Assembly (NCBI GenBank): GCA_043228905.1
Contig: JBHGNT010000013.1
Location: 5,766,001-5,830,000, forward strand
DNA from: Azolla caroliniana
Lineage: Eukaryota; Plantae; Polypodiophyta
DNA: 64,000 bases
Direction: 5' to 3'
Positions 10,285 to 63,548 of this stretch are shown in pieces. Each line of letters starts with the position of its first letter. The first letter of the stretch is position 1. The notes beneath the pieces were generated by a model, which worked only from the letters and a program-made list of their open reading frames with translations, was not told the origin of the DNA and did no database searches. The position numbers and the translations under genes are program-made.

Positions 10285-11220
10285 GGTCCGACGTGCCATG
10301 GCACTGTCCCACATGCGTGCTAGGTGTTGTCCGCCAGAATAGTAACCGATGGATAGGAGATATAGTATAAACATAACGCATGTAAACGGTTCACGTGGGA
10401 AGCGTGAACGGCTGAAAAACCCTGTGTATATAAAGGGCAAAAATCCTCTGATAGAGGTAGTGTGTAATTTGGAATGAAAAAGGCGTATCTTAATAGAGTT
10501 CTATCTTCTCTAATCCCCGTGCGTATCTGTGGTTAATCTACTATGTGTCCGACGTGCCATGGCACTGTCCCACAGGCGTGCCAGGTGTTGTCCGCCGGAA
10601 TAGTAACCGACGAACAGGAGAGCAAAAATATAGAATATAGTATAAACGTAATGCATGTAAACGGTTCACGCGGGAAGCGTGAACGTCTAAAAAACCTTGT
10701 GTATATAAAGGGAAAAAATCCTCTGATAGAGGTAGTGTGTAATTTGGAATGTAAAAGGCATATCTTAATAGAGTTCTATCTCCTCTGATCCCTGTGTGTA
10801 TCTGTGGTTAATCTATTGTGTGTCCGACGTGCCATGGCACTGTCCCACATGCATACTAGGTGTTGTCCACCGGAATAGTAACCGACAGATAGGAGCGCAG
10901 AAATATAGAATATAGTATAAATGTAACGCATGTAAACGGTTCACGCGGGAAGCATGAACGGCTAAAAAACCCTGTGTATATAAAGGGCAGAAATCCTCTG
11001 ATAGAGGTAGCATGTAATTTTGAATGTAAAAGCCGTATCTTAATAGAGTTTTATCTTCTCTGATCCCCGTGTGTATCTATGGTTAATCTACTGTGTGTCT
11101 GTGATTCTTGGTGGCGTAGTGTAGTCGTAAGAGCGTAGGCGTGAGTAGCGGTGTGGTTGCTAGTCCATTGTCTAAGGAGTTCGGTTGTAGCCATCTCCCT
11201 TATACGCTACTAGGATACGG
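10285..11220 (+). mobile_element. LTR with its 5' part tandemly triplicated
   Basis: Units start at 10285, 10546 and 10821 (GTCCGACGTGCCATGGCACTGTCCCACA), each containing TATATAAAGGG. Preceded by purine tract GGAGGAAGATTAAAGGGG. Interrupted at 11221. Confidence 0.75.
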
Positions 11221-13371
11221 TGTCGTGAAGTACAAAAGCTTTACATTAAAAGTCTACAATAAGATAAATACGTAACTAAAATAACATTTAATCATGTTTT
11301 ATATATAAAGATAATATTAACAACACATATGATAATATTATATATATGTAAAGAAAAATAATATATATATATATAGATAAATATATTATATTACACGAAC
11401 AAGAGAGGACTTAAACCAATAATCCCACCCTATGTAAATTTTTGTATGTAAATTTTTGTTAGAAGATGTAATATGTCGTTACGGGTGTGTTGGTAAAATA
11501 ATTGCAGATAGAGGAGAACTCGACTCTGATGAAGCTAGAGAATTCTTCAGCCGAATAGGGGTCAAATTATCACTTACAACTGCGTATAATCCAAAAGCCA
11601 ATGGAAAGATTGAAAGAGGACATAGCCCAATAGTTAAGGCGATCGCGAAAAGCTGTAAAGGTAAAATAAGAGATTGGCCACACATGCTACCTTATGCACT
11701 ATGGGCAGATCGAACAACTCATAGTTCAGTAACAGGATACATGCCAGCTAAATTGATACTTGGCCAAAAGCCCATCATGCCGATAGAAGAATCAATTATG
11801 TCATGGATATCTATTCCATGGAGAGAAGAGGTGAGTAGAGAAGAATTACTTGCTTTGCGAATTCAACAATTAGAGCGTCGACCTGAAGATATAGAAATAG
11901 CAGCCCAACGATTGAAGGAGGCTCGACTAAAGAATAAAATCCGTTTTGATAAAAGTCATAGAATTCGACCTAAGAAAATAGAAGAAGGAGATTGGGTGCT
12001 CGTGTGTGATAGCAGTTTAGATAATCAACATAGCACCGTCCGCAAGTTCGCTGAAAGATGGTTTGGGCCTTATATAGTAAGAAAAGTATATGATAACTTT
12101 ACTTATAAGCTTAGTGAATTGGATGGGACACTAATCCTAAACGTGGTAGCTGGAAAGAGGATAAAAGTATTTAAGAAAAGGTTTGAGCTTGAACCTCCTC
12201 CAATAGATCAACATGAAGATGAAAGATAGTGGCACATGCCGGAGGATGTGCAAGTCTAGAGGGGGTGGATGTCGTGAAGTACGAAAGCTTCACATTAAAA
12301 GTCTACAATAAGATAAATACGTAACTAAAATAACATTTAATCATGTTTTATATATAAAGATAATATTAACAACACATATGATAATATTATATATATGTAA
12401 AGAAAAATAATATATATATATATATAGATAAATATATTATATTACACGAACAAGAGAGGACTTGAACCAATAATCCCACCCTATGACTCTCAAATCTTAC
12501 CATTTATTCTATACTAGTAATATACATAAAATAAAGCATACTTTATATATACTTTATATTACATAAAGGACTTGCTTCATGATATAAAAATAAAGTTGTA
12601 TGTTGTATTCAATAGTATTTTGAGACTTGAACCCACAACCTCATACACTAAAGTCAACACACCTACCATTAGGCTAGGCCCTTTCTCTTTAAGATTATGT
12701 TTTCATGTTTATTGTTATTGCATATATTGTTTCATACATAAAAGCTCAAATGAGCGAGATGTTTATCATGCATCACATGCATTTCATGCACTACATGCAT
12801 GACTTGTACCCTCCAATGCACCATATGCATGGGGGCACCTATTCAAATGGTGAAAGAGAAGATCAAAAGGAGATATGTATGAGATATCAATCAAATATTT
12901 ATTACATAAGAGATACCATAAAATAGAGAGAGAAAGGAAGAAGTTCAACATAAAGGTGGAGCTCTAACTTGGCGGTCGTGGTGGTCAACTCTCAACAAGA
13001 GGGAGGTGGTTCGAGCCTTACCTTCATCAAAATATTGAAGTGAAGATTGTAGTGTTCTATGATCAAGAAAGAGAAGAGTGATTACCTTGCAAGACAAAGT
13101 TCGGAGGTTCAACGACGTGCACAATCATTTTGTAACTCTTTCATGAAAATGATTATAAATTTCATACACTTTCTCATATATTATTTTATATCTTATCTTG
13201 TCTTATCTTATATTCCTTAAAAATCCTATTTTGTCATATCTTATTGATCTCTATTCACTCTATCTCTACTCTTTCGTCTCTTCCGTCCATAATCCCAGTG
13301 ATTCCTTCCTCACTTTCACGTTATCCTTTGTGTGCACAACGCTACGCTTCTAGGCGAGTCACGTCACAACA
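11221..13371 (+). mobile_element. Internally deleted Phygy-type Gypsy: 5' LTR stub, integrase C-terminus, full 3' LTR
   Basis: 11221-11434 repeats 12270-12485. Integrase ORF 11456-12229. PPT GAGGGGGTGGA. The 3' LTR ends TCACAACA. Flanks are ACGG and ACAG. Confidence 0.85.
11456..12229 (+). pseudogene. Gypsy integrase C-terminal half
   Basis: IIADRGE, NGKIERGH and WFGPY motifs. Confidence 0.9.
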
Positions 13372-14921
13372 ACAGGAGGTATCCCACTAAGTATTACGCT
13401 ACAACGGTACCATTCGTTGCAACACAGTCACTTTGAGGTCTAGGTCGAAGGACTAACTGTTGATCGTGTTCCTAATCGGTAACAAAACCTAAGGGTGTTT
13501 GAATGTCGTACCGAAGGATCAGAGGTCAAAACCTGATAGTAACTCAAAAGCATGCATATTCATGGGATACCCGGAATATGAGTTTGGCTATAGGCTATGG
13601 AACCTAGTTGACAAGAAGGTGGTGAGGAATCGGGATGTAGTCTTCCTAGAAGACAAGACTATTGCGGACTGGAAGAAACAGAAGTTGGAATTGACTGTCA
13701 AGTCAACCCCGACAGCCAATCGGTACAATTGAATCCGAGTCGGTCAACTCGAAGAGACCAACTGACTGTTTGTTTGAATCGGCAAAGCTACTAAGGTCGA
13801 TAAAGGAATATGAATTGGAGTCATCCAACCTGGAGATGTTGATTGACATACATGAACCCAACCCGAGAAAGGAGTTGTCAGAGACATCCGAACAAGAGCC
13901 AACAACGAGTGGAAGGAGGTACCCACTCAAGGAAAGGAAATCCCAGACAACATATGCCAGTCAATACATCCTCTTGACTGACGAAGGTGAACGAGAGTGC
14001 TATGATGAAGCCATTGCCGATGATTACAAAGAGAAATGGTTGAGCGCGATATAAGATGAAATGGCCTTCTTGCATGAAAACTACACCTATGACCTAGTAG
14101 AGTTGTAGAAAGGTAAGAGAGCACTCAGGAATAAGTGGGTCTACAAGGTGAAGACTAGAGAAGCCAACAACATGCCTAGGTATAAAGCCTGTATAGTGGT
14201 TAAGGGGTTTCAGCAAAAAAAGGGCGTCGACTTCGACGAGATATTCGCACCAGTCGTGAAGATCACGTCCATCCAAACTATTCTGAGCATAGCTGCCAAC
14301 ATGGATCTGGAGATCAAATAGTTGGATCTCAAGACAACATTCTTTCACGATCTAGATGAAGAAATCTACATACAACAGCCTGAAGGCTTTGTGGAGAAAG
14401 GGAAAGAGAATCTAGTGTGTCGACTGAAGAAAAGCTTGTGTGGATTGAAACAAGCTCCACACCAATAGTACAAGAAGTTTGAATCCTTCACGATGGAACA
14501 TGGGTTCCAGAAAACACAAGTTGGTCATTGTGTGTCTATCAAAAGGTACGACAAATAAGACTTCTTGATTCTCTTGTAATATGTGGATGACATGTTGATA
14601 GTCGATCAAGACACAAGAAAGATTGGTAGCTTGAAGAAAGCTCTAGGCAAGTCATTTGCCATGAAAGATCTTGGACCAACCAAACAGATTTTTGGGATGC
14701 ACATAGTTCGAGACAGAATTGAGAAAGTGATAGGGTTGTTACAAGAGAGATATTTTACTAAAGTCCTTAAAAGATTCAACATGTTGGACGAAAGTCGGTA
14801 AGCTCGGTATTGCCAACAAACAACAAATTGAATGCTAAGCAATGCCCGAGAAGAGAGAAGGAAAAGGCCGAGATGAGGGCAGTATCATATGCCTCGGCCG
14901 TCGGCAGTTTAATGTATGCTA

Positions 14922-17420: not shown

Positions 17421-17586
17421 TTGTGGTCATCAAAAAAGTGTTATCGGTTTAGGGTTTGTTGATGATAATAATGTTGATGAAGATGGTAATGATGGGTGTG
17501 ATGACAACCATTGCAAGGTAGTGGTGGAGATTGATCAGCATTGTGGGGTGGGGGGTGGCACTTAGAATGGTGTAGGGTAAGCTAAT

Positions 17587-17621
<35 letters not shown>

Positions 17622-26137: not shown

Positions 26138-29100
26138 CATGTGCATAAAATGTACATCCATCAAACAAATGAATTGTAGGAACTCAATCATGTTAAAATG
26201 TATATGTCAATTTAGTAACTCTATTATCTTTTGTCACTTTTTCTTGGATTGGTTGAAAGGTCACACAATAGATGTATGGTCAAGCCAGTAGATGTTTTTT
26301 TGTATTATTTTATTGTTGGTTATACTCATTTAATGAGCAAGAAGAATCACATCTCTAGGTATTTCCTCCACCCACATGGGGCATGTACTAATGAATGTGG
26401 TACACTAATCATTATGAGTGTCTGTGGTTACCTAACAACAATTGATTAAGATAAATAAAAAAGTTGAGGGGTTCAATCACATTTGAATTCAATCTAAAAT
26501 GTCAATTTTGTGATGTATGAGAAACAATTTGTTTTTGTATTTGGAAAGAATCGGGTATGATTCTTGTGTAGCGGAAGCGATGTGTGTTGTGTGTATGTGT
26601 GTGAGGAAAGAGAGAGGAGAAGAGAAACACAAGATAGATTAGTTGAAGTGGAAAAGGAGTACTCAAGAAGAAGATGTATATTTCACAAGTAAAATATGAA
26701 TTACAAAATGTAGCATTACAAGGAGTCCCAAACGACTTAGTATGAATTAGGAGGAGGGTGCTTTATATAAGGTCACCCTCTCTCTTCATTAACTTATTAC
26801 AACTTCCACTCTCTCTCTAGAACCTTGAGGAATGTGAAGACTCATAGTTATCGGGAATATGGAACTCATTAGTTATGTGTCATAGAATATGATTCTATGA
26901 CACATAGTTTAATGTGTAGAGAGTGGTATGACTCTTGACCTTTGAGTGCACATAGATTCTCAAAGGTGTGTTCACATGTTGCTCTATGTTGAGTTTGATT
27001 CTTAACACGCCCCCTCAAGCTCAACTCGGGTCGGTTCCTTTGGATTGATGTTCGCTTCGGCTCGTATCCGGTTCGAACGATCTTCGGTGTCTGATTCGGC
27101 TCGTACCTGGTTCGGACGGTATTCGGTTCTTGATTGTACTCCCCCTCAAGCTTGGCAAGTCAAGGATTGTCATTCCAAGATCTGAAATGAATTCCCGAAC
27201 TTGTCGGCTCCTAGGGCTTTCGTGAAAATGTCAATCGTTTGAAGATTCGTGTTGATGTGTAGAAGGTCGACATCTCCGGTTGGAACACGCTCTCGAATGA
27301 AGTGATAGAGCACTTCGATATGTTTTGTGTGAGCGGGGAACACCGGGTTCCGAGCCAAATAAATATTGCTCATGTTGTCATAGTAAAGGGGAGTCAGATC
27401 CTTGATTGGAATGCCCAGATCCTTCAAAATCCTCTTGAACCATACGGCTTCCCATGCAGCTATGGCTGCACCCCTGTATTCCGCCTCCGTACTCGAAAGA
27501 GCAACGATAGGTTGCTTCTTGCTACTCCACAAAATCGCTATGCTGAGGGAGAAGAGGAATCCGGAGGTGGATCGTTGATCGGCTTTGTAGCCTGCCCAAT
27601 CCGCATTTGTGTACCCTTCGAGTCGTACTGGTGTGGCCGATTTGTAGAGAATGTCGTAATCCATTGTCCCGCTCACATATCGTAATACTCGCTTAGCACA
27701 ATCCAAGTGAATGTCTCATGGTTTTTGTATGAATTGGACGAGGGGGCCGACCGGATAGCTGAGGTTGGGTCGAGTGATTGTGAGATAGATGAGGCTCCTG
27801 ATCAGTTGTCAATACTAAGTCGGCTCACATTCTTCCACGCCGGAGTCAGTATCCAATTTGAGGTTTCAATCAAGAGGCGTAGCGATCGATTTGCACTCAG
27901 TCATCCCAAACTTGTATAATAAGTTGAGAATGTAGTGTCGTTGGGAGATCATAATGCTGGCCAGAAACCGAATTACTTCGATGCCTAGGAAGTAATAGAG
28001 CTTCGTCATGTCCGTCATTTTGAATTTGCTGGTGTCGTGAAGATCTGTCACTATGTGCAGATTGTGAGGCAGAACCACTGGGGTCCTGGACCGGAAGGAT
28101 TCGAAGTTTGCATTAGTTTAGCGAGAAAGTATTTAAGATAGATTGAAAGAGAGAGATTGATATGGTGAGAAAGAGATAGAGAGAGATTAAGATTGAACCC
28201 TTGACTTTAGACTTAAGAAACACGATACATTATCAATTGGATAAAGAATTTTCTTCTTATTAAATTCTTGAATAATACATAGCTCCTTTTATCTTTTTCA
28301 TCGACTCTTTTATAGATGCCCCCATGCATATGATGCGTGTGGGGGTACAAGACATGCATAAAATGCATGATGCATGTTTGCCATTTGGCGCTCATGCATG
28401 TGATGCATGATAACCATGTCACTCATTTAAGCTCTCATATAAGAATTTTTCAAGTAAAACTATAATGATAAAAATGTAACTTTAAGGAAATGACTTGGCT
28501 TAGTGGTAAGTATATTGCTTTCTATCTTGGAGGTGCAAGGTTCAAGTCTTACTTACATCTCTTTTAAAGCACAAAATACTATTAGGCTTTTGGACCAAAT
28601 ATCTTTAAAACACCATGCACCGCGATCAACCGACCCGACCGATCTGTCCGATTTGCATTCATTCGGTCTGGCCCGGTTAGGTCCGCATCCTGAGGTCACC
28701 GGATGTCGGTCACCAACCGGTCGCCGGATGTTGGATGCCGGTCACCGGTTGCTAGTTCCATCACCAGTCGGTCGCCGGTCGTCGTCGTCGCACTGTCTCC
28801 GTCCAAAACCAATGAAATATGCTACATCCATTTCTCAAGTCATTGAACTCATCCTTTCTATGCTTTAAAACACCATGCACCGCGATCAACCGATCCGTCC
28901 GATTTGCATCCGTTCGGTCTGGCCCGGTTCAGTCCGCATCCCGAGCCGGATGCCAGTAATCGGGTTTGCCAACATCGATCGGTCGCCGGTTGTCGCATCC
29001 CGAGCCAATTCGATTTGCATCCCGAGCCAATTCGGTCTGCATCCCGAGGTCACCGGACGTTGGATGCCGGTCACCGGTCACCGGCTGCCGGTTCCATCAC

Positions 29101-29597
29101 CGTCTCCCCGATGTCGTTCCGCTGTCTCTGTCCAAAACCAATGAAATTGGCCACATCCATTTGTCAAGTCATTGAACTCATCCTTTCTATGCTCCACACA
29201 TAAACACATAGATAATAACTTTTGCTTTGCCTTATATATGATGAGATCCTTATTTGTCATGTCTATGTGGGATATCTCACAATTTTATTTTTCTCTTTTT
29301 CTTTGCAAACTTCATACCCACATAACTTGACACTGAGATGTCCGTTTGTTATGTAGTAAAGGGCATTCAAAAGCTCTTCAAGACCTCCATCTTTTTGTAC
29401 CAAGATATTAAACTTATTTAAAATAGTATCTTCACTATTATTATTTTATATTTCGTGAGAAGAACCACACTCGATTTTATATGTTCCTCACAAGTTTCAC
29501 ACTATCACCGAAAATCTTCATGACATCCACCCCCACCAAACCGCACATCCTTCGGTACGTGCCAAGAAGAGAGAGTGCGAGATTTCGGCTACGGTGA

Positions 29598-32500
29598 TCA
29601 ATTAGATTCTTCCACGTGCTCATTCACATCTGTCCTACTATCTTCATCGTCGAGGTGATCAAGGTTAGGATTCTCGTCTTGTCTTTTCTTGAAAATCTCT
29701 ACTCTTTTTCCTGCAATGGGTATGGCCAACCTTGATCCATCTAGCTCCGCAAGGTGGTATGTGGCATTGTCATTGGCACTTGTCACCACATACGGTTCGA
29801 ACCATCTTCTTGCGAACTTTCTTGTTGTAATGTGTTGATTGTCAAGGCTGCTATCGTAGACCAATACCCAATCTCCTTCTTCGATCTTCTTGGGGCGCAG
29901 TCGATGCGTCTTGTCGAACCGAATTTTGTTCGTCACTGGGGCTGCCTCCATCATCTTTCGCGCTTTTTCTAGATCTTCAGGTCTTCTTTCAAATTTTGCT
30001 TATCCGTGCCGCTAATAACTCTTCTCGGCTCATCTCATTCTCCCATGGTATCGCTACCCATGAGGCGATCGTCCTTTCGATGGGCATTACCGGTTTTTGT
30101 CCATAAATAAGCTCCGTTGGCATATAACCTCCTGTCATTGAGTTGTGTGTCGTTCTATCGGCCCACAAGGCATAGGGCAATAGTCGTGGCCAATTCCCTA
30201 CTCGACCGTTGCATGCCCGTACGATGGCTTTGACGATAGGTCCATGCCCTTGCTCGATCTTCCCATTCACTTCTGGATTGTAGGCAGTCGTGAGGGAGAG
30301 CTTTACACCTAGTCATTCAAAGAGCTCCGTTGCTTCGTGCACATCCAACTCCCCTCGGTCAACTACTATGTTTCCCACGCATCCGTATCGACAGACAACC
30401 TCTTCGAGTAGAAATTTGCAAACAGCTGACATCGTCTTATTTGTCAAGGCCCGTCCTTCCACTAGATTTGTCAAGTCTTCTCTTGCTAGAACTAAGTATT
30501 TCATTTGTCCCACTTCCATTGGCATTGAGACCAGATCCACCATCCATTTGAAGTGTATGGTGAGCAGGTATGTCGGTTGTAGCTCATCACGATGACGTAT
30601 GTTGGAATGTACTTGGCAAGTTTCGCATGTGGACACAAAATGGAGTACATCTTTGTACATGCTTGGCCACTAGTACTTCTCCTTCAACTTTTCAAACGTT
30701 GCCCTTGTTCGTCTATGACCTGCCCAAGCACTCTTCTGGAATTCAGTCATCAGGGTCCTTTTCTTTCTTCACCACCACTCGACGTGGTATTCCTATCCTT
30801 CTTTTTGGGTGTCACCAAAGGAATCCCCCCTTCAGCAAGTATTGCTAAACTTTCTTCCGGATTCGTAGAGCCTCCTCCTTCGGCAACGAAGCATCCACCG
30901 TCATTGTTTTTAGGAATTTGTCGATCAGTAACCACTCTCCTTTGTACTCGTTCTCGTTGAAGGCGTGGAGGGTTAGCATGCCCTTGTCTTCCGCCGATAG
31001 TCGAGTCATCTTGAAGAAGTCGAGGGTGACGTCTTCATCTTCTGAAACCATGTCACCTTCATTCTCAAATCTTGCCCTCGACAACATGTCAGCCATGATG
31101 TTCTTCTTTCTTGCAATGTGGCGAATCTCTGGGCTTAAAGAATTGATATAGGCGATCCACCTTAGCATAGCTAGATCTAGGGTCGCATATCCTGAGATCA
31201 TCCTGAGGATTGGAAGACAATCTATCTCTATTATCACTTCCGACCTGATCAGGTAGTCTTTGTCCGTCTGCACTGCAGACACAATACTTGACTTGGGCGT
31301 ATCTTTGTTGTCGTTCGCTGAGAACCTTTGCTCCGAACCAGATAGCATACCGCACATTATCTTCTCCTTATTGGTTGATGACCCACCCGATTCCGGTTGG
31401 GCTCGTATCTACAGTCACATAAATCGGCTTCCCTTCGGCATATTCGGCCTTTCTTAGTGCTGGAGCTTCAAGAAGTAGTTTCTTCAATCTTCGCATCGCA
31501 TTTGTATGCTCGTCTCGCCATTCTAACTTCATTCTTTTCTCTAGCAATCCATATAAAGGCTCGATGACATGAGTGTAGTGCAGAATCTAGATATGATAAA
31601 ATGCGCATGCTCCAAGGAACCTTCGAACCTCCATTTGGTTTACGCATTCTTCTTTCCTATCCTGGATCGCGTTCACCTTGGATGACGAAGGCTTCCGGCC
31701 GTATGCTCCACACAAGTGACCTACCACCAAGATCTCCGGTTGCTTGAATGCGGAATTTTCTCCCGAAAATGTCAAATTCGCATCTTCGAGCTGTTGAAGC
31801 ACCTTCTCACAATCTTTCATATGATCCGCGACGAACTTTCTACACCCTTCCTTATCTTTCGATTCATCTTTCTCCTCATCCAAACATCCTTTTATCGGAA
31901 TATCATCCAAGAATGGCATCGTGATGTCCGGGATGCAATCCTTCAAGACCTTGTTCATGGAATTCACCATATGAGCCACCGAGTTCATTGCACCTTGAGG
32001 TAAGGTACACATCCGCACAAGCCTGATCGGAGTCCTCATGGTTGTAATGTCACGATTGTTGACCGCCAACTGGAATTGGTCATATCCGGAGTACATGTCG
32101 CTAATGGAGTAGATGGACCGGCTCGCAAACGCTTCGGCAAATTCATCCACACTTGGACCGATTCTAGCATTCCAAATGGTCACCTTGTTGAAGGGTTGAA
32201 GATCTTGGAAGAATCGCAATGATCCATTCTTCTTCGGCACCGTGAACCACATATTAGAATAAGGAGCATTCGACGGTTCTAGAATTCCCATATTCACCTT
32301 CTCCTTTAAGAGCTCGATCAGCTTTGGAAGGTGTGCTCTTGGAATTGGTATTGGTTTCAAATTCCAAGGCACATGCGGCACATCCAATTTCTTGGGGAGA
32401 GAACGCGAAGGCTTTCCCATGTCCTTCAAGCATTTCACGAAACTTTCGCTCCTCTTCAGGGAGGAGGAAATCCTCCTTTCCAACTCGTAGCTTTCTTTTC

Positions 32501-33683
32501 GTCTCTTTGGTGAAGACATGACCTATTGTCTTTGGATCCCTTAAGCTTGGATCATTAGCGACTTCCTTCATCTTTTGCTAGCTATCTTCCGGTAGCGGAA
32601 CCGCAACTAGCTATCCACCATTTTATATTTTGTGTTGATGTCAGCTTCCTTCATTAAGATGCTTTGACGATATTCATCGATGATAGCGTACATGTTGATG
32701 GAGCTAATTGAAATCATGTGATGATCTTGAAGATAGATCAAGTCCACAACGTTCTCGATTTCGCCGATGGTGTCGTTAAATGAGGCTTCTTCCATAATAT
32801 GAGTCACAAACTCTTCTTCTATTATGTTTTCTTTTTTCAATATCTTCTCGAAGTCTTGTATCTGACGCTTGTCCTTCTTGTTGGGTAGTACTGTTTTACA
32901 CGCGCCACTAGGTGTGACACATGTTGTTTCTCCTCGCAATCCATGCGCTCTACTTTCTTGTGGGGACTTGTGATCACTCGGATTATTTGTGCCCCATGCT
33001 TCAATAGTCCGCTCTAAGAATCTGGGGATTCGCCTCCAAGACTATCTTGATTTCTTTCATGATTAGCTCACACCGTTAGGAATTGAATAGATCTTTGATT
33101 GTCAAGACTCTTGATTCGTGCGAAGGCTGCTCCATTATCGAACACCTTGGTCTCCATCTGTGATGATGTGATGTATGGTTGTCCTAAGATAACAGGATGC
33201 GATGCCGATTCTTGTACGAAGAAGTGTTGATCCATCTCCACATCCCCGATCGTGACTTGAACATTGGAACAAGCTCCGTACAAGTCCTCCGTAGACTTTG
33301 TTGCCGCTTGAATCTTCCATCCTTGGTTTTTATTGATTGGCCATCTTCCTTTTTTATAGAACTCAATTGACATGAGGTTGATCTTCGAGCCATGGTCGAT
33401 CAAGGCTACCACGGTCTCTTTCTTCTCCCCGATCTTCACCGGCGTGTCCATTGTCGCTCGTGCCCAATGAGGTCGAGTATAGTGGTTATCCACCATATCT
33501 TCATCGACTTCGTCTCTTGCCATCATTATGGCATTCGCTTTCGCTTTTAGTGGCTTCTCTTCGTCTTCGTCTGGTTGTTGCCTCTTTCTTTTTACAAGGT
33601 CCACGATCGTGTCATGGAACTCCTTCTTCATAATGCCGAGTAGTTCCCTCAAAGGCAAAGTCATGTGGCTATCAAGAACGCGT
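29598..33683 (-). pseudogene. Element A protease, RT, RNase H and integrase (frameshifts and stops)
   Basis: ORFs 33068-33664 (ALIDHGS), 31587-32519 (FLDD), 30845-31357, 30313-30660, 29989-30270 and 29598-29954. Confidence 0.92.
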
Positions 33684-35058
33684 TGTCGTGAAGAAAACCG
33701 TCCCTTAGCGCAATCGGTGTATAGCGCGCGCGAACCGGCTCTTCACGCGTGCGCGCCCTCTAATGTATATAATAAAGGATTAGGTACAAAGGTATATCCT
33801 AGGTAGTTAGATTCGGTAGGTAGGAAGTTAATGAGGGAAGCGGCTCCCTTCTTGAAGCCATAAAAGAGAGGGAGGCGCGGGGAGAAAGGGATCGGGCATT
33901 GAGGAGGACGAAGTGCTGTCGGACCGTAACCGAACGCTTCTCCTCTGTTCATTCTCCATCACTCTTCTCTACAGGATTTCGGGAGGCTCGTGCTGCTTCG
34001 AGGAACGCCCGTGTGCTTCCGGCAGCACCTCCATCCTATCCCCTTTCGTGCGCAGACGAGCAGTCATCGGCATCTGTTTGCCAGCGTGTTCGGTTGTAAC
34101 CGCTCGCGTGCTCTGTTGTTTTGTGTCATTTGTTAATATACAAACATTCGTGTCTCTCTGTCTCTGTGTCCATTAGTGTTTTCTGCGTTGACGGGCCGTG
34201 TCCTTGTGTTTCTTTGCTCATACGTAACCGGTCGTCTCTCTCTTTCTCTTTCCCCTCCTATCACCTGCTCTTCGGTTCAAGACCCCGGTGGTCCCGCCTC
34301 GTTTCTCCACGCACGCGCGTAGTAACGCTATCGTGCCTTTCGGCTCCGGATCGTTGCGTGAGTCGGGTGGGAACCACCGAGGTTTTGGACTAGGAGGAAG
34401 AGGAATACAACTTAAGGCTAGTTATGAATAGTAGAAAGAGAAGTAAGATAGCAATCTCGTGAATCCCACGAGTTTAGTGTATTTAAAACAATATTTAGAT
34501 TATAAGAGTAATTTAGATGGCAAAATTCGTGAATCCCAAGAATATATTAGATTGATCAATCCTTGTATATTAATCAACAACCTTATACATATTTCTCTCC
34601 TCCTTATATAAAGATGGAAGAGGCTAAGCATGGCTTCATGCTTTTTCACCAAAAGTGTCCATGCACACTAAATGTGCATGTGATGCTTTGTCATTTCCTA
34701 AGTATAGGGCTCAGGCTCATACACGCTAGATGTGCATGAGTCACTTTCAATGTCACGTGTAAATAAAATATTCACACCCTAAAGAATACATGATTTTTAC
34801 CTTTTAATAAAGGTATGTGTAAATAAAGGTCTTATACGTATTAAATCTATATATATAACACTAAAGATAAGTTATTACAATGGTAAAGTTGGGGTTTATC
34901 TATGTGGAGGTGCAGGGTTCGAATCCTGCCCTATGCATGTGATAAATATTTTGATATATTATCTACGTGGAGGTGCAGGTTTCGAATCCTGCCCTATGCA
35001 CGTGATAAATATTTTGATATATTATTTATTTATTTATATGTATCTAAAATCGGATACA

Positions 35059-40733: not shown

Positions 40734-40750
40734 CTCCTTGCCACCCGGTT

Positions 40751-40768
40751 TTCACGTCGGGTTCACCA
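40751..40768 (-). promoter_or_regulatory. Primer binding site, tRNA-Trp
   Basis: TGGTGAACCCGACGTGAA, 4 nt after the 5' LTR, complementary to the plant tRNA-Trp 3' end (from memory). Confidence 0.8.
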
Positions 40769-41478
40769 ACTGTGTCGTGCCCTTCGGCTCCGGATCGTTG
40801 CGTGAGTCGGGTGGGAACCGCCGAGGTTTTTGACTAGGAGGAAGAGGAATACAACTTAAGGCTAGTTATGAATAGTGGAAAGAGAAGTAAGATAGCAACC
40901 TCGTGAATCCCACGAGTTTAGTGTAATTAAAACAATATTTAGATTATTAGAGCAATTAGATGGCAAAATTCGTGAATCCCACGAATGTATTAGATTGATC
41001 AATTTTTCTATATTAATCCACAACCTTATACATATTTCTCTCCTCCTTATATAAAGATGGAAGAGGCTAAGCATGGCTTCATGCCTTTTTTCACCTAAAG
41101 TGTCCATGCACACTAAATGTGCATGTGATGCTTTGTCATTTCCTAAATATAGGGCTCATGCACGCTAGATGTGCATGAGTCACTTTTAATGGCACGTGTA
41201 AATAAAATATTCACACTCTAAAGAATACATGATTTTTACCTTTTAATAAAGGTATGTGTAAATAAAGGTCTTATACGTATTAAATCTATATTTATAACAC
41301 TAAAGATAAGTTATTACAATGGTAAAGTTGGGGTTTATCTACGTGGAGGTGCATGGTCCGAATCTTGCCCTATGCACGTGGTAAATTCTTTTGATATATT
41401 ATTTATTTATCTATATGTATCTAAAATCGGATATATTATTTTATGGTTTTCACGTAGTGTGTGGAATACACTACGACA

Positions 41479-43483
41479 ACGCCCACGTTGCCGAGCCGCT
41501 ATACGGGTTGCTGAAAAGGGGCGAAAATTTGAGTGGCGGGACGAGCATACGGAGTCGGTCCGAAAGATGAAGGAGGCTCTTGCTGCAACTCCGGCACTCC
41601 GGAAGGCTGTCTACGAGAAAGGCACTCCCATCTACATGACGGTAGATACAAGTCCGACCGGGATCGGATGGGTCGTCAACCAAGAAGATGAGGACGGCAT
41701 TCGGTTCCCAATCCGGTTCGGCGTGAAGGTCCTCAGCGAGCGATAGCGAGGATATGCCCAGGTTAAACGCGAACTCTGGGGTATCGTTTCAGCGGTGAAG
41801 GCCGATAAAGACTATCTGAATGAGATAGAGGTGATTATCGAGACGGATTGCCTGCCGATTCTCGGCATGGTTTCCGGATGCGCAACCCCGGACCTGGCAA
41901 TGCTCAGGTGGATAGCGTACATCAAGTCCCTGGATCCGGAAATACGACACATTTCCGAGAAAGACAATGCCATGGCCGACATACTTTCGAGGGCGCGATT
42001 CGATGACGAGGGCGGCATGGTTTCGGAGGACGAGGAAGTCGGCGTGGACTTCTTCGAGGCAGGTTACGTAACAACCGAGGGGGGGAGCACTCCGACGCTT
42101 AACGATTTCAACGAGAGCAAGTACGACGGGGAGTGGCTGCAGATTGGGGGATTCTTAAGGATGATGACGCCGGACGCGTCATGGACAAAGGACGAGGCCA
42201 ACCGGATCCGGAAGAAAGTGTATCGATTCTTTCTCCGGGACGGATATTTGTGGAAGCACCCGAAGAAGAGAAACGGCATCCCGCTCCGAGTAGTGGCGAT
42301 GAAGGAGGAACAGGAGGAGTTGCTGAAGGCCTACCACGACAGCCCCTGGGCTGGACACCGTGGGACGTGGGCCACGTTCGAGAAACTAAAAGGGAAGTAC
42401 TCGTGGCCGGGACTGTACCGGGACATGCATCGGTTCGTGACAACTTGTGAGAGCTGTCAGATACACTCCATAGTCCGACATCGGGACGAGCTTCACCCTA
42501 CATACCCTCCGACCATCCACTTCAAATGGATGGTAGATTTGGTGACGATGCCGATGGGTGTAGGGTAGATGCGATATCTAGTGCTGGCCCGGGAGGACCT
42601 GACGAACCAGGTGGAAGGCCAAGCCCTGCAGAACAAAACGACCGCGGCCGTGTGTCGGTTCCTGATCGAGGTCGTGATATGCCGGTACGGGTGCGTCGGG
42701 AAGATCGTGGCTGACCGCGGGGAGTTGGACGCCGAAGAGGCCGAGGCGCTGTTCGACCGGTTAGGGGTCAAGCTCTCGCTCACCACAACGTACAATCCGG
42801 AGGCGAACGGGAAGGTGGAGTGCGGACACGGACCGATCGTCAAAGCGCTAGTCCGGGCATGCAGAGGCTAGGTCAGGAACTGGCCACGACTGTTACCTTA
42901 TGCCTTGTGGGCAGACCGGACAACGCACAGTTCGGTAACTGGGTTCATACCGTCAGAGCTCATGTTCGGACAGAAGCCGATCATGCCGATGGAATGGACG
43001 ATCTCCTCTTGGGCGACAATGGACTGGAGAGATGAGATGAGCCGGGAAGAACTGCTCGCGGCGCGTATACGGCAGCTCGAGCGGAGACTAGGGGACGTGG
43101 AACAAGCGGCGGAGAGACTTCGGACGGCGAGGATAAGGAACAAAGCCCGGTTCGGCCGAACGCACCGGCTCCGACCAAAGAAAATCGAGGAAGGCGATTG
43201 GGTGCTAGTCTACGATAGCAGCCTCGACAACCAGCACCGAGCAACACGGAAGTTTGCAAAGCGGTGGTTCGGGCCTTACGTGGTAACGAGCGCCAACGAC
43301 AACGGGACGTATCACCTGGCGGAACTCGACGGTACGAGGATGGCGGTACCGGTAGCAGGGAAGCGGATCAAGGCGTTCAAGAAGCGCCACGACGGCGAAC
43401 CGGATGTAAGAGGCCTAGACATCGACGACAAACAGTCCGAAACGGAGGACGAACCGATGAACGAGGAACCAGAACCCAAATAG
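41479..43483 (+). pseudogene. Element B RT tail, RNase H and integrase remnants
   Basis: AHVAEPLYGLL, TVDTSPTGIG, NAMADILSR, HRGTWAT, WFGPY, with several stops. Confidence 0.92.
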
Positions 43484-44191
43484 GTTTTCTTCAACCAGAA
43501 CCCAATTTTTGCGCATACCGGTGGATGCGCGGTTAGGTGGGGGCGGATGTCGTGAAGAAAACTGTCCCTTAGCGCAATCGGTGTATAGCGCGCGCGAACC
43601 GGCTCTTCACGCGTGCGCGCCCTCTAATGTATATAATAAAGGATTAGGTACAAAGGTATATCCTAGGTAGTTAGATTCGGTAGGTAGGAAGTTAATGAGG
43701 GAAGCGGCTCCCTTCTTGAAGCTATAAAAGAGAGGGAGGCGTGGGGAGAAAGGGATCGGGCATTGAGGAGGACGAAGTGCTGTCGGACCGTAACCGAACG
43801 CTTCTCCTCTGTTCATTCTCCATCGCTCTTCTCTACAGGATTTCGGGAGGCTCGCGCTGCTTCGAGGAACGCTCGTGTGCTTCCGGCAGCACCTCCATCC
43901 TATCCCCTTTCGTGCGCAGACGAGCAGGCATCGGCATTCTGTTGTTTTGTGTCATTTGTTAATATACAAACATTCGTGTCTCTCTGTCTCTGTGTCCATT
44001 TGTGTTTTCTGCGTTGACGGGCCGTGTCCCTGTGTTTCTTTGCTCATACGTAACCGGTCGTCTCTCTCTTTCTCTTTCCCCTCCTATCACCTGCTCTTCG
44101 GTTCAAGACCCTGGTGGTCCCGCCTCGTTTCTCCACGCACGCGCATAGTAACGCGACAGCGTTCCTCGAGAATCTTCTTCAGGTCTGTTGT

Positions 44192-45601
44192 CTACTCTAT
44201 GTCCAACCTTAGCTTATAGGTAGGCATAGTCCTTGTCTTTCGAGTGGGGTCTCCAACACCAATCTTCACGGGCTGAACCGTTTCCTTGACTCGTTTGCTC
44301 GACTCCGCTTTTCGGCTAGCATCTCCTTCCTCTATTTGTAAAGGTTGACTTGTTTCTGCATCTTCTTTCTTTTTCGTGTTCCTTGTTTCATGTCTCTTTG
44401 ATGGGCCTTGCTCTTCTATTCTTTTTCTCTTTTTTTCGAAGAACACCTCGTGGTTGTCGCACATCACTTCTGCAAGTATGGTGTTGTCATCCACTGGATC
44501 CAACCACCCGATTATGCTTTGCATGCTTCGGTCCGCAAGCTCTACCTCGTTCAATGTGACCTTTCCCTTCTTCTCATACTCAAGAACGAAAGACCAAAAC
44601 TTTGCTCCCACTTTCGCAGCTTCATTTTTGTCTTTCCCGACTCTTATTCCGGCCAACGCAACATAGTGCATCGCATCCACATGAGTCGCCTCGGCATCCT
44701 CCATAGCTTTCTTCATTCCCCCTCTTCCAAAATTCACTCGTAGGGGTCTCCTAGTCTCACTCGAGCAAATCATGTTGCCATCCATGTACACGATATTTTG
44801 TCGAATGGCATCTCGAAGGCTCGAACAATCTATTCTCATGTGGTCCATGCTATCGCACCACACGCATCTAAAGGGTTCTTTTCCTTTGGGACCTAAATGA
44901 TTCATCTTGGCTAGCATGACTATCTCAAACTTCTTTGCTAGTTCTTTAATGATGTCATTGTCAATCTTCTTTTCTTCTAGGTTACTTTGTTTGGGCGGCT
45001 CAACTACTTTTGGTTGTCTCGTTTTCTCCGTGACAGTTGATCCTGCCAAGTCGGTGTCATCAACCCATTGACGACGGTTGTCAGGCCTATTGCACGCTCG
45101 TTGCACCGCGATCTAGTCCGCTACAAGTCCATTTTCTTGGTTATCGTCTTCGAGAAGAGTCCCCAATTCTCGTCTATCCTTCATGTCCACAGCTTTCAAG
45201 AAGTATAAAGTCTTGTCCTCCTCAAGCAACACTTGGTCCGTATTTGGGAGACGACTAAACATCTGGTCGAATTCGTCGTACACCCTCGAGGCGCTCATCT
45301 TCTTATTGTTCTTCTCTATCCACTTCATGAGGGTATGTCGAGTCATCGTCGTCAAGTCTTCCGTCGCGAACTCCACTAATATCGCTTTCTCGAACTCAGA
45401 CCATGTTTTCTTACCTTCTTGAAGCTCGATGACACGTCTTTGGATGATGTTGGCGACCACTGTCTTGAAACTTGTGATTTTCCGCGCTTCAGACACATCC
45501 CTTTGATTTATCTCCCTTTTGTATGTGTCAAGGAACTTCGTAACGTTCCTTCCATCAAAGTGGCCCTTGAGCTCTACGACATGGTGGACAACCTTCTCCA
45601 C
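44192..45601 (-). pseudogene. Element A gag
   Basis: FDGRNVTKFL and CVWCDSMDHMRIDC. Homologous to element C Gag. Confidence 0.88.
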
Positions 45602-46382
45602 GCTCGCATCGTTGTCTCAAGATCTCATCATTTGTTCAATGATTATCATCATCCTTTCGAACTCTCCTGCTTGATTGCTTGAGGACGCCATCTCCAAGTA
45701 TCGATCGATCCTCGACTTGATCCTTCCTACCGCCTCTTCCACGTCGGGTTCTTCACTTAATTATGTTGTGAAGATCCGTCACTATGTGTGGATCGTGAGG
45801 CAGAATCACCGGGGTCCTGCATCGGAAGGATTAGAAGGTGTCATAACTAGACTCGAACCCATAACCTTTTGTTACACGGGTCGAGACTTTACCATTAGGT
45901 TATGAGTTGTAATTTGAAGGATATTATTTTCATTTAGGTTGTATTAGGAAATTGATGTATATTCCAGATTTCTCTGGAACATTCTAGAAACTTCAGGAGT
46001 ATTCCTGAAGACACTATAAAAGGAGGCGCAAGGCATTAGTTCGAACCAAATCGGTTCAACGCCAGTCTTAAGCCTTCTAACTACTGTTGTATATCTTCCG
46101 TCATATAATACATATATCTTTCGCATCATCATTCTCTCTCTCTCTCTCTCTCTCTCTCACTCACTCATTCCTTCTCTCAAAGTTCGACACCTCTCATAGT
46201 ACTAATCCTTCTCTGTCTTAGTACTATTCCCCAACAATAGTACTAATCCTTCTTTTAGTACTAATTCCTTCTCTGCCTTAATAGAGTTCCTGACAGTTTG
46301 AACCGATTTTCCTACTAGTCTCCCTCTTCCTTCTGTCTCTCTCCTTTCCTACTAGTCTCTTATTTCCCTTTTCCTTCATCCC

Positions 46383-47552
46383 ATGGCCACCGTTAGCGCT
46401 GAAGAGTATCAATCCGTTTTCTCGGAATTTCAATGCTTGAAAGAGAAGTTTCATGCTTTGGAACAAGAAAATCAACGCTTGTTGGGGGATCTTCAGCAAA
46501 TTTCCTTAGAAAAGCAGCAAACGCAACAACAGCATGGGGAACTTGCGTTACGCGTGCAACAACTCGAAGCAACCATCGTAGCAATGCAACAACAAGGGCA
46601 CGGAGCACAAGGGATTCATAAAGAACCCAAGATTGGCCTTCCCACGAAGTTCGATGGAACGCGATCGCAGTTTAGAGGGTTTCTTAACCAGGTACGGTTA
46701 GTTATTCAAATGCATCCGTCCCGATATCCCACCGATGCATCACGAGTGGGTTTAGTAGGCACGTTGTTAAATGGCTCAGCATTAGCATGGTTCGCTCCGC
46801 TACTAGAAAAGGAATCTCCAGTACTAAATAATTTTGAAGAATTCATAAGTGAGTTTAAAGCATGTTTTGGAGATACTGACAGCATAAGGACTGCAATCAA
46901 CAAAATCCGGCGATTACGCCAAGGTGACCGTCCAGCCTCCGCATATGCTGCAGATTTCCGCCTACTCGCCGCCGATATCCCCTGGGATGATCAAGCATTG
47001 ATGGAGCAGTTCCGCTATGGTCTACGCAACGATGTCAAGGATTTACTCTTGACTTTCCCTGAAGAGCCAAAATCATTAACAGAAGCAATCAGTCGAGCGG
47101 TCAGATGTGACAACCGCCTCTTCGAGCGACGTTCGGAACGACAATTTCAGATGCCGAGGGCAAGATCCGAGCCTACCTATGCCTCAGTGGTAGCGAAACC
47201 TTTTCAAAGGGAGTCACATAATGCGCCTCCAGTAAGTACTCCAACTCCAATGGAAATTGACACTACACGTCGTCGTGGGCCGCTATCGGAGGAGGAAAAG
47301 CAACGACGCCGAACAAACCGATTATGCCTTTATTGCGGTGGACCAGGGCATATCGCGATAAACTGTCCCCATAGACCAAGAAGGCAGGTAAACCAAGTCA
47401 TTGTTAGTTCTGACTATACTAAACCCGAGTCTATGTCAGTAGGAATCTCTGATAATCCTCATAGTCATAATAGTCCTAATAGTACTAATAGTCCGAATCT
47501 CGCAAACAAATTTGATGTCCTTAGCCAATTAGAAGAAGAGTTAAACGACTAA
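46383..47552 (+). CDS. Element D Gag (389 aa)
   Basis: N-terminal coiled coil, PTKFDG, LRQG, FRYGL, PMEID and CLYCGGPGHIAINC. Confidence 0.93.
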   Translation: MATVSAEEYQSVFSEFQCLKEKFHALEQENQRLLGDLQQISLEKQQTQQQHGELALRVQQLEATIVAMQQQGHGAQGIHKEPKIGLPTKFDGTRSQFRGFLNQVRLVIQMHPSRYPTDASRVGLVGTLLNGSALAWFAPLLEKESPVLNNFEEFISEFKACFGDTDSIRTAINKIRRLRQGDRPASAYAADFRLLAADIPWDDQALMEQFRYGLRNDVKDLLLTFPEEPKSLTEAISRAVRCDNRLFERRSERQFQMPRARSEPTYASVVAKPFQRESHNAPPVSTPTPMEIDTTRRRGPLSEEEKQRRRTNRLCLYCGGPGHIAINCPHRPRRQVNQVIVSSDYTKPESMSVGISDNPHSHNSPNSTNSPNLANKFDVLSQLEEELND

Positions 47553-48559
47553 GTCCAGCCAAAATAGGAGCCGTTTGGTTGGACAGCCCTAGATCTGTGC
47601 AGCCCATTAGTGGTTCCATTCCCTCTAAGCAAGTTAGTGATGTGTTCGTAGTCCAAGTAGCAGTTAGTACTAAAAGTACCCCTCCAGTACATACCTTAGC
47701 CCTTCTAGATTCCGGAGCTAATTCTTGCTTCATGGATAGGAATTTTGCCCGAGCTCATCAGATATCTCTCAGAAAGCTCCCATGTCCAGCCTCAGTAGTA
47801 GTCATTGATGGTCGTCCCATTGCTTCTGGTAATATCATAGAAGAGTCGGAACCCGTTAATATTGTCCTAGATAACTTAACATGTGTAGTATCATTTAATA
47901 TTATTAGTATTCCAGAACATCCCATAGTTTTAGGATTACCATGGTTCGAGTTACATGACCCAGACATAGATTGGAGGACAAGGGAAATCCGGTTGCGACA
48001 AACCCAAGGATCTACCCAGAAGGTTGCAACCATTTCGCTACGTCAGTTGCGTGAGGAAGGGCGCAAGGAGGAAATGTTTCTCTTTGCAATATCAGTACAA
48101 CCCTCCAGCACCACCAAAGAGGAGTCCACCGTTCAACTTCCCGAGAAGTATCGTCAGTATGCTGATGTGTTCGATAAAGTACAAGCCAACACACTTCCTC
48201 ATCATCGGCCGTACGACTGCGCCATCGACTTACAACCGGGAAAAGAGCCGCCATGGGGGCCGATCTACAATTTGTCACCAACCGAGCTAGAAGTCCTTCG
48301 AGCCTATATAGAGGAGAATTTGGAGAACGGTTTCATTCGGCATTCGAAATCTCCAGCCGGCGCACCCATTTTCTTCGTCAAGAAAAAAGATGGCTCGCTT
48401 CGACTCGTTGTAGATTACCGTGGCTTGAATAAGGTCACAGTAAGAAATAGGTATGCTCTTCCCCTTATCTCAAGTCTTTTAGAACGGATCAACGGTGCCA
48501 GGTTCTTCGTGAAGCCTATAACCTCGTACGGATCCGACCAGGAGATGAATGGAAGACCG
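47540..48559 (+). pseudogene. Element D pol: protease and truncated RT, in the -1 frame
   Basis: ALLDSGA, LPHHRPYDCAIDL, SPAGAPIFFVKKKDGSLRLVVDYRGLN, then joined directly to the 3' LTR. Confidence 0.92.
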
Positions 48560-50394
48560 AGACTCGAACCCATAACCTTTTGTTACACGGGTCGAGACTT
48601 TACCATTAGGTTATGAGTTGTAATTTGAAGGATATTATTTTCATTTAGGTTTTATTAGGAAATTGATGTATATTCCAGATTTCTCTGGAACATTCTAGAA
48701 ACTTCAGGAGTATTCCTGAAGACACTATAAAAGGAGGCGCAAGGCATTAGTTCGAACCAAATCGGTTCAACGCCAGTCTTAAGCCTTCTAACTACTGTTG
48801 TATATCTTCCGTCATATAATACATATATCTTTCGCATCATCATTCTCTCTCTCTCTCTCTCTCTCTCACTCACTCATTCCTTCTCTCAAAGTTCGACACC
48901 TCTCATAGTACTAATCCTTCTCTGTCTTAGTACTATTCCCCAACAATAGTACTAATCCTTCTTTTAGTACTAATTCCTTCTCTGCCTTAATAGAGTTCCT
49001 GACAGAAGGTTGCACTAGTTTAGCGAGAAAGTATTTAAGCTAGATTGAAAGAGAGAGATTGATATGGCGAGAGAGATAGAGAGAGAGAGATTAAGATTGA
49101 ACGCTTGACTTTAGACTTAAGAAACAAGATACACCATCAATTGGATAACAAATTTTCTTCTTATTAAATTCTTGAATAATACATAGCTCCGTTTATCTTT
49201 TCCATCCACTCTTTTATAGATGCCCCCATGCATATGATGCATATGGGAGTACAAGACATGCATAAAATGCATGATGCATGTTTGCCATTTGGAGCTCATG
49301 CGTTACATGTGATGCATGATAACCATGTCACTCATTTAAGCTCTCATATAAGAATTTTTCAAGTAAAACTATAATGATAAAAATGTAACTTTAAGGAAAT
49401 GACTTGGCTTAGTGGTAAGTATATTGCTTTCTATCTTGGAGGTGCAAGGTTCCAGTCTTACTTATATCCTTTTTAAAGCACAAAATACTATTAGGCTTTT
49501 GGACCAAATATCTTTAAAACACCATGCACCACGATCAACCGACCGGACAAATCTGTCCGATTTACATCCTGAGGTCGCCGGATGCCAGTAATCAGGTTTT
49601 CAGGTTTCCGATTCTGTCGTCGTATCCTGAGCCAGTTCGGTCCACATCCCAAGGTCGTCTGATGCATCCGGTCACTCGTCGCTCATCTCGATGACTCTGT
49701 TGTCATCTTGCCGACGTCATCCCGCCGTCTCCGTTCAAAACCAACGAAGTTGGCTACATCCATTCATCAAGTCATTCAACTTATCCTTTCTATGCTCCAC
49801 ACATAAACACAAAGGTAATGGCTTTTGCTTTGCCTTATATATGGTGAGATCCTTTTTTGTCCTGTCTATGTGGGATATCTCACAATTTTATTTTTCTCTT
49901 TTTCTTTGCAAACTTCATACCCACATAACTTGACACTTAAATGTTCGTTTGTTATGTAGTAAAGGGCATTCAAAAGCTCTTTAAGAACTCCATCTTTTTG
50001 TACCAAGATATTAAACTTATTTAAAATTGTATCTTCACTATTATTGTTTTATATTTCGTGAGAAAAATCACACTTGATTTTATATGTTCCTCACAAGTTT
50101 CACACTATCGCCGAAAATCTTCACGACACCGGAGAGGAGGGATTTGACCTTATTGATGTTGACTAGACTTTCACCTCTAATGACCAGATCATCCACGTAT
50201 AGAATGATGACAATTGGGCTTTTAGACTTGTTTCGTACAATTGGGCTTTTAGACTTGTCGGATTTCGACATTTGGAAGCCTATTTGATGAAAATATTGCG
50301 TAATCTTTGTAAAGGAATACAAGTGAGAAAGCATATGCGCAAGACATAGAGTATATTTCGAAAGTAAGACAGATAGGTAAAACACAAAAATGAA

Positions 50395-62300: not shown

Positions 62301-63548
62301 CTCCGGTGCGTACTAGGATGCGGACTCGTCGAAGACTACATCTCGACTCACACGAACCTTGCAAGTCGGGGGGTTATAGCATTTGTAGCCCTTTTGCTCC
62401 AGTGAGTATCCTATGAGGATACATTTCTCTGACTTTAGGCTGAGCTTTTGTTGCTTTTTGTCGAGGATGTGCACTTATGCAATGGAGCCGAATATCGAAA
62501 CATGTGATAGATCCGGCTTCTTCCCGAAAAACTTCTCGTGCAAAGTAAGTTTGTGCAGACCCGATGTCGTACGCCGATTCATGAGATAGATGGCTGTGTT
62601 AGCCACTTCCGCCCAATACGATTTCGGCATGTTCTTTTTGTTAAGCATAGCTCGTGCCACTTTGACGATGTGCCGATTCTTGCGTTTGGCTAATCGGTTC
62701 TGTTATGGCGTATGTCAACACGAAAACTCTCCCCGCATCCCTTCTTTTCGAAGATACGCCATAAACTCATTCGAGAAATATTGCTTGCCTCCATCCGATC
62801 GAAGGCACCGTACGTGTGGACCCGTGGCTTTTCCGACTCCACTCTCGAATTTTTGGAAGTGTCTGAACACTTCGCTCTTCTGCCGCATTGGGTAGATCCA
62901 AGTGTGCCTTGAGAAGTCTTCAATGAAGGTTACATAATATCGGCATCCGCCAAATGTCTCCGTTTGAGCCGGTCCCCATACATCGGAATGAATTATGTTG
63001 AGTACGTCTTTGCTCATGTTCCTCTCCTTCGGAAATGAGTGCCGATGTTGCTTACCAAATTGGCACACCGCACATACGCCTTCAATCTCTCGCTCTTTGA
63101 AGGTCGGGAGTCCGATGATGACTCCTTTCAATTGCGTCACCTTGAGCTTTTGAATGTTGATATGGCCAATTCGCTTGTGCCATAACTCTATATTGGACTC
63201 GGCTTTCATACCTTTTGAGAACATGGCCAATTTCATCTCGTGTGAGTCGAGAATGAACATTGAGCCCTCTCTTCATCCACGTGCGATAAGTCGACCTTCT
63301 TTCTCAATAAAGCAACCACCTTGACTAAATTGAACTTGCATTCCTTGCTCTACAATTTGGCCGACAGAGACCAAATTCTTCGTAATGGTAGGGACATGCA
63401 AAACATTTTTAATGCAGGTTTGCTTCCCTTTTTCTTCGAATGAGACATTGTTGATGTGTCGAATGGGATGCATAGCGTCGTTTCCGGTTTCGACATAGTT
63501 GGGTCGCTCCGGCTCTCAAAGTTCTTGGAACCATTCTTGATAAGACGT

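What the first reader, a model, noticed from the sequence alone, without database searches (positions are those of the whole stretch)
11217..63548. Phygy-type Gypsy elements insert at CpG-centred 4-bp target sites (NCGN)
Seen: all five scorable insertions of the TGTCGTG...CA family have CG in the middle of a 4-bp target. These are ACGG/ACAG (11217-20, 13372-75), CTGG/CCGG (28029-32, 50129-32), GCGT/GCGT (33680-83, 44159-62), ACGC/ACGC (34325-28, 41479-82) and ACGT (63545-48, one side only). The 4-bp length is fixed by restoring host frames (LLSGKF, ILEERVLD). Both mismatches are CG>TG or CG>CA changes, as expected from 5mC deamination. Other families here lack CG in their TSDs (TGCTA, GAAGG, CCCAG, (A)TCTT). 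Established: plant LTR elements usually make 5-bp TSDs with weak sequence preference, and I see no chromodomain in these integrases. Inference: the integrase may select (methyl)CpG directly, steering insertions into other CpG-rich transposons and away from AT-rich gene space. I cannot confirm this is unreported.
Basis: partly seen in the sequence, partly recalled or inferred. Interest (0 to 1): 0.85.

Follow-up and report, generated by a model that had tools for sequence, protein, structure and literature searches.

The report
Known CG-centred target of Phygy retrotransposons
These plant jumping genes do insert at 4-base sites with CG in the middle, but this was published for the Phygy group in 2019, and it likely reflects the integrase reading DNA sequence and bendability rather than DNA methylation.

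Summary
All nine quoted 4-mers are at the stated coordinates. A 4-bp duplication is confirmed at two sites against uninterrupted homologues. Neumann et al. 2019 (PMC6317226) state that Phygy elements prefer NCGN: 186 elements, 4 bp 100%. I added 72 unique junctions of related LTRs from metagenome contigs: 58 have CG, 9 TG/CA, 5 other, against 3.7% background CG. All 58 are VCGB (no T first, no A last), palindromic, with ACGT commonest; one incidental GCGA exception lies outside that set. Retroviruses with 4-bp duplications show the same T/A avoidance and central pyrimidine-purine step, largely independent of chromatin, and Drosophila ZAM integrase binds CGCGCg directly. Direct methyl-CpG selection is untested and unsupported: no chromo or methyl-reader domain was found, and TG/CA at targets matches CpG decay inside the LTRs (13% vs 15%). 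Low interest; a modest motif refinement.

The parts
11217..11220 (+). left target copy of element A (ACGG)
11221..13371 (+). element A: deletion derivative; 214 bp of 5' LTR, integrase C-terminal part (11438-12229), PPT, full 3' LTR 12270-13371
13372..13375 (+). right target copy of A (ACAG, CG>CA)
10031..10034 (+). right flank of G (GCGT), one side only
28029..28032 (+). left target copy of element B (CTGG, CG>TG)
28033..50128 (-). element B in a copia RT gene; 8,446 bp without nested C and E; LTRs 28033-29525 and 45764-50128 (the latter split by E)
50129..50132 (+). right target copy of B (CCGG)
33680..33683 (+). left target copy of element C (GCGT)
33684..44158 (+). element C in B's gag-pol; 5' LTR 33684-34328 lacks its last 4 bases, gag to most of RT missing, RH-INT 41479-43483, 3' LTR 43548-44158
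44159..44162 (+). right target copy of C (GCGT)
34325..34328 (+). left flank of D (ACGC), part of C's 5' LTR end
34329..41478 (-). element D, 7,150 bp; LTRs 34329-35101 and 40773-41478; gag(DUF4100)-protease 38691-40751, RT-RH-INT 35875-38814, INT tail 35059-35661; likely a recombinant of two insertions
41479..41482 (+). right flank of D (ACGC), part of C's RT end
63545..63548 (+). left flank of element F (ACGT) in a copia integrase region, one side only
63549..64000 (+). start of LTR of element F, cut by the window end
1..173 (-). start of the 3' LTR of element H (preceded by its PPT at 174-199); no host junction in the window

Best explanation
These are Phygy-type non-chromovirus Gypsy retrotransposons that insert at 4-bp palindromic VCGB sites (ACGT commonest), likely because their integrase complex selects a bendable central CG step and reads the neighbouring bases directly, without needing methylation. 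Shown: the 4-bp length at two sites, the CG centre, the symmetric A>C>G>>T rule at the outer positions, a weaker C one base outside the duplication, and the lack of a chromodomain. Inferred: a symmetric integrase complex cuts with a 4-bp stagger, kinks the target at the central pyrimidine-purine step and adds base contacts that narrow YR to CG; later 5mC deamination turns about one in seven target CGs into TG or CA; nesting in CpG-rich transposons follows passively from target density and from tolerance of such insertions.
For: Published Phygy trait: NCGN in the main text and '186 elements, 4 bp (100%) (NCGN)'. 58 of 72 unique junctions have CG in the central register against 3.7% background (p=9e-70); non-family chance matches 2 of 20 (Fisher p=1e-8). 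58 of 58 CG targets are VCGB against 40% of background CG sites in the same flanks (p=1e-23); the two halves are symmetric (A34 C14 G10 vs A35 C15 G8, p=0.87). Serrao et al. 2015 report for retroviruses with 4-bp duplications a central YR step with T and A disfavoured at the first and last positions (section read), largely independent of chromatin (abstract). ZAM integrase binds and nicks CGCGCg targets in vitro (abstract). Closest solved structures are Ty3 and foamy-virus integrases. No chromo or methyl-reader Pfam family in 9 of 9 proteins scanned at E up to 1 (one weak Tudor hit below cut-off lies in the gag-protease homologue P0204, not in an integrase). Decay at targets equals decay in LTRs.
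Against: No biochemical or methylome test was possible. Retroviral 4-bp sites enrich YR only about 63% over chance, far weaker than the near-absolute CG here, so the analogy does not by itself explain why CG and not TA or CA. The 72 junctions are one-sided, come from one series of assemblies and from the LTR families that fit my search pattern. One incidental junction of another family in L007 reads GCGA and breaks the VCGB rule; three junctions read xAGT. Phygy membership was not tested by a tree with REXdb references.
Confidence: 0.8

Rival explanations
1. The integrase directly prefers methylated CpG (through its core or C-terminal domain), which would steer insertions into silenced transposon DNA without a chromodomain.
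For: CG is near-absolute (67 of 72 CG or TG/CA), stricter than generic YR preference. All six window insertions are in other transposons. No chromodomain. Phygy is reported enriched in centromeric regions of a liverwort (passage) and often nested in Tcn1 in Physcomitrella (passage).
Against: No methyl-reader domain found. Decay at targets is no higher than in LTRs. CG-containing targets occur for ZAM in Drosophila, whose genome has next to no CpG methylation (recalled). The outer-base rule matches chromatin-independent retroviral rules. Only 15 of 72 flanks match window transposons, a lower bound.
Confidence: 0.1
2. Sequence readout sets the VCGB motif, but a host factor or chromatin feature separately tethers integration to heterochromatin, so both act.
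For: Centromeric enrichment and nesting in the literature; dense nesting here; integrases carry an acidic C-terminal tail of unknown role.
Against: Nesting is equally explained by selection against insertions in genes and by five-fold higher CpG density in these elements (0.068) than in the low-GC part of the window (0.013). No genome was held.
Confidence: 0.25
3. The pattern is an artefact of mis-set LTR ends or of picking the sites.
Against: The omitted junction also has CG; LTR ends are fixed by LTR-pair alignment; family membership of the 72 junctions was judged only from bases inside the LTR; CG occurs in other registers at most 7 of 72 times.
Confidence: 0.01

Closest known systems
Phygy clade of non-chromovirus Ty3/gypsy elements (Neumann et al. 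2019, PMC6317226; REXdb)
   Same: 4-bp NCGN duplication, no extra polyprotein domain, short element filled by the polyprotein, length near 7.7-10 kb. Best named hit for D's gag-protease is a Physcomitrium patens protein, A9U5C8, E=1e-161; best named pol hits are Riccia sorocarpa proteins at about 63%.
   Different: Described there from Physcomitrella only and as NCGN; here several families of another host give the narrower palindromic VCGB with a weak outer C. D (7,150 bp) is a little below the published range.
Retroviral integrases with 4-bp duplications: PFV, MoMLV, PERV, XMRV (Serrao et al. 2015, PMC4422553)
   Same: Central YR step; T disfavoured at the first and A at the last duplicated position; palindromic.
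   Different: Their preference is weak and not CG-specific, and they favour T/A two positions outside; here CG is near-absolute.
Drosophila Gypsy-group elements: ZAM (CGCGCg; Faye et al. 2008, PMC2527525) and the ATAT/TATA clades (Linheiro and Bergman 2012, PMC3276498)
   Same: 4-bp duplications with high-information palindromic motifs that follow lineage; direct binding of a CG-containing target by the integrase.
   Different: Animal lineages; motifs are ATAT, TATA or CGCG rather than VCGB.
Chromoviruses (Tcn1/RLG1 of Physcomitrium)
   Same: Gypsy elements of non-seed plants that pile up in transposon-rich DNA.
   Different: They carry a chromodomain and make 5-bp duplications; these elements have neither.

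Membership tests
Phygy (REXdb) | 4-bp target duplication with NCGN | tested here: met
Phygy (REXdb) | Gypsy domain order PROT-RT-RH-INT | tested here: met
   Pfam on D's frames and on full-length homologues
Phygy (REXdb) | no chromodomain | tested here: met
   no Chromo family in window integrase tails or homologues at E up to 1; tails end in an acidic stretch
Phygy (REXdb) | no additional archaeal-type RNase H | tested here: inconclusive
   Pfam finds a single RNase H region; no aRH-specific profile was available
Phygy (REXdb) | primer binding site for tRNA-Trp (81%) | tested here: inconclusive
   D, B and C-family contigs share one primer site just inside the 5' LTR; its match to tRNA-Trp is recalled, no tRNA was available to align
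Phygy (REXdb) | length 7,656-9,968 bp, polyprotein fills the interior, no extra ORFs | tested here: met
   B 8,446 bp net; D 7,150 bp (slightly short) with ORFs across its interior
Phygy (REXdb) | RT-RH-INT groups with reference Phygy sequences in a tree | not testable with these tools
   the reference FASTA is too large to read; only indirect support from a P. patens hit
Chromovirus (Tcn1 and others) | chromodomain at the integrase C-terminus | tested here: not met
Methyl-CpG-reading integrase (hypothetical) | preference for methylated over unmethylated CG targets | not testable with these tools
   needs a strand-transfer assay or insertion maps in a methylation mutant

The most novel reading that the evidence does not exclude
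Phygy integrase reads methylated CpG itself inside a strict VCGB palindrome, giving a chromodomain-free way to aim at silenced DNA; the CG dinucleotides in its own LTR tips sit in the avoided TCG/CGA context, which would limit insertion into its own ends.
Probability: 0.1. Interest if true: 0.7.

Novelty: already known. Interest (0 to 1): 0.2.

Why it matters
The core claim is a listed trait of the Phygy clade, so it changes little. The useful additions are small: the trait holds in another host with several families, the motif narrows to palindromic VCGB, and this links it to the rules known for 4-bp-stagger retroviral integrases. A near-absolute CG-centred integrase in a lineage present in the model moss would make the effect of 5mC on integrase target choice easy to test; only a positive result there would be of wide interest.

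Tried and rejected
No whole genome is held, so no genome-wide count. Viral contigs gave 0 matches. Records behind five metagenome loci were not held, so the second flank of those insertions could not be read. Laying contigs on 40600-44400 gave only three readable junctions, all with central CG (table 5c). Laying on 44124-44175 gave 25 contigs in two runs whose unique parts begin at 44161-44163, that is after the CG position, and none listed at 44159-44160, but four rows were hidden and laying favours flanks that match, so I treat it as weak. The copia at 13500-15300 was too distant to serve as a ruler. Papers on Ylt1, truffle and Cryptococcus gave no target motif for related fungal elements in the passages shown, so I could not use a methylation-free host as a control. 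The search for 'NCGN' returned mostly kidney-disease papers (93 hits, 30 listed). Searches showed, in their listings, no paper on methyl-CpG targeting by Phygy or on a VCGB motif; this is limited to an open-access library and to listings. Earlier scan notes: none found. A 5-bp duplication was rejected at B and C. No structure was predicted because a model would not separate the rivals.

Full report
Setting. The window is a nest of plant LTR retrotransposons. No whole genome is held. Element D's pol is closest, among named proteins, to Riccia sorocarpa sequences (about 63%), and its DUF4100 gag-protease to a Physcomitrium patens protein (A9U5C8, E=1e-161), so the host is likely a non-seed plant (inference).

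Observation. All nine quoted 4-mers are at the stated places next to LTR tips. LTR-pair alignments fix the tips. For C in B's gag-pol, each host piece was aligned on its own to the natural homologue P0022; both reach residue 532, at 44159 and at 33682, as a 4-nt overlap predicts. For B in a copia RT, the two pieces align to the uninterrupted paralogue with 50130=57540 and 28025=57545, an overlap of exactly 4 nt. A has no ruler. D's ACGC/ACGC is not a duplication of one site: left of D lies the tip of C's 5' LTR minus its last four bases, right of D lies the end of C's RT. D's LTRs differ more (30 of 704 sites, K2P 0.044) than those of C, which contains it (11 of 607, 0.018; Fisher p=0.011), so D is likely a recombinant of two insertions into C that removed the DNA between them (inference). 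Either way both junctions have central CG. Other families show TGCTA/TGCTA, GAAGG/GAAGG, CCCAG/CCCAA and ATCTT/TCTTC, none with CG.

Independent junctions. Judged only from bases inside the LTR beyond the pattern, 98 are family members, 20 are unrelated chance matches and 3 were too short to judge and were dropped. Of the 98, 17 follow the element's own polypurine tract and were set aside; 81 have a host flank, 72 after removing 9 duplicates. Of 72, 58 have CG in the middle of the four flanking bases, 9 have TG or CA and 5 something else (two of these five, L006 and L066, may not be host junctions). Background CG in the same flanks is 3.7% (p=9e-70); no other register holds CG more than 7 times; the chance matches give 2 of 20. 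All 58 CG sites are VCGB against 40% of background CG sites (p=1e-23); ACGT makes 21 of 72. First and last positions mirror each other (p=0.87 for difference), and C is enriched one base outside (26 of 58, p=2e-5). Limits: the junctions are one-sided, all family loci come from one series of assemblies, and one incidental junction of a different family in L007 reads GCGA. Contigs laid on the window gave three more junctions with central CG and weak agreeing evidence at C's right tip.

Methylation. TG/CA at targets (9 of 67) equals CpG decay between nearest-neighbour LTR copies (64 of 440 by a rough per-copy count; p=1.0). So the mismatches fit ordinary deamination after insertion and say nothing on methylation at the moment of insertion. 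No chromo or methyl-reader family was found in three window integrase tails, five homologous polyproteins or the P. patens protein. CpG is five times denser inside these elements (0.068) than in the low-GC stretch 17430-27100 (0.013), which gives a passive bias toward transposons; 15 of 72 metagenome flanks match window transposons, a lower bound as the window was the only library; flanks are 42% GC with CpG o/e 0.83. With 1,429 VCGB sites in 64 kb the motif cannot by itself be a strong regional targeting device (inference).

Mechanism. Most likely a symmetric integrase complex cuts with a 4-bp stagger, bends the target at the central pyrimidine-purine step and contacts neighbouring bases. Serrao et al. 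2015 (PMC4422553; abstract and one results section read) report for 4-bp-duplicating retroviruses a central YR preference with T and A disfavoured at the first and last positions, largely independent of chromatin: the same outer rule as VCGB. Faye et al. 2008 (PMC2527525; abstract) show ZAM integrase binding and nicking CGCGCg; that Drosophila has almost no CpG methylation is recalled. Linheiro and Bergman 2012 (PMC3276498; passages) show palindromic 4-bp motifs that follow lineage among fly Gypsy elements. The closest solved structures are Ty3 Gag-Pol and foamy-virus integrase. What narrows YR to CG here is not known; methyl reading stays possible at about 10%.

Prior art. Neumann et al. 2019 (PMC6317226; passages and Additional file 5 read; Additional files 1 and 3 too large to read and may hold more on the motif) write that, with the exception of Phygy elements, which prefer the NCGN motif, duplications are highly variable, and list Phygy as 186 elements, 4 bp (100%), NCGN, tRNA-Trp primer 81%, 7,656-9,968 bp. 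Jedlicka et al. 2019 (PMC6911290; passages) note GC-rich centres in 4-bp duplications, 4 bp as the common length for Phygy, and Phygy nested in Tcn1. A liverwort genome paper (PMC12885004; passages) reports Phygy enriched at centromeres. PMC7466625, PMC5014426, PMC2864245, PMC12581995 and PMC12810828 (passages) added nothing on this motif. I saw no VCGB refinement and no methyl-targeting test for Phygy in the listings, which is weak evidence of absence.

Verdict. Real, correctly named, already known. Interest 0.2 for the motif refinement and the testable but unsupported methyl idea.

Noticed in passing
window 34325-41482: Element D replaces the end of C's 5' LTR through most of C's RT and has more diverged LTRs than C; likely recombination between two insertions that each used an ACGC site.
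   Followed up: partly
window 11221-13371: Element A jumps from base 214 of its 5' LTR straight into the integrase core, so it is an internal deletion derivative that kept both outer junctions.
   Followed up: partly
L042, flank next to the match: One LTR start directly follows the end of a C-family LTR with only ACGT between: a new insertion apparently reused the duplicated target of an older one.
   Followed up: no
L007, about 46 bases before the match: A second LTR start of a C-like family is preceded by GCGA, the one exception seen to the VCGB rule.
   Followed up: partly
LTR tips, e.g. window 33684-33690 and 50122-50128: The CG in the elements' own terminal inverted repeats sits in TCG/CGA context, which is the context avoided as a target.
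   Followed up: no
72 metagenome junctions: Decayed targets read CA 7 times and TG 2 times at the 5' junction, and three read xAGT; small numbers, unexplained.
   Followed up: no
L099 and L100 (one contig): The same host flank plus LTR start occurs twice about 1.3 kb apart in one contig: a local duplication or an assembly effect.
   Followed up: no
window 10283-11184 and 15318-15749: Tandem arrays inside LTRs of other families: about three 275-bp units, and 54-bp units in the solo LTR 14922-15781.
   Followed up: no
window about 63975-63995: Three TTAGGG units inside the LTR of element F.
   Followed up: no
window 50303-50307 and 61405-61409: A copia element is flanked by ATCTT and TCTTC, which fits a 4-bp TCTT duplication or a shifted 5-bp one.
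   Followed up: no
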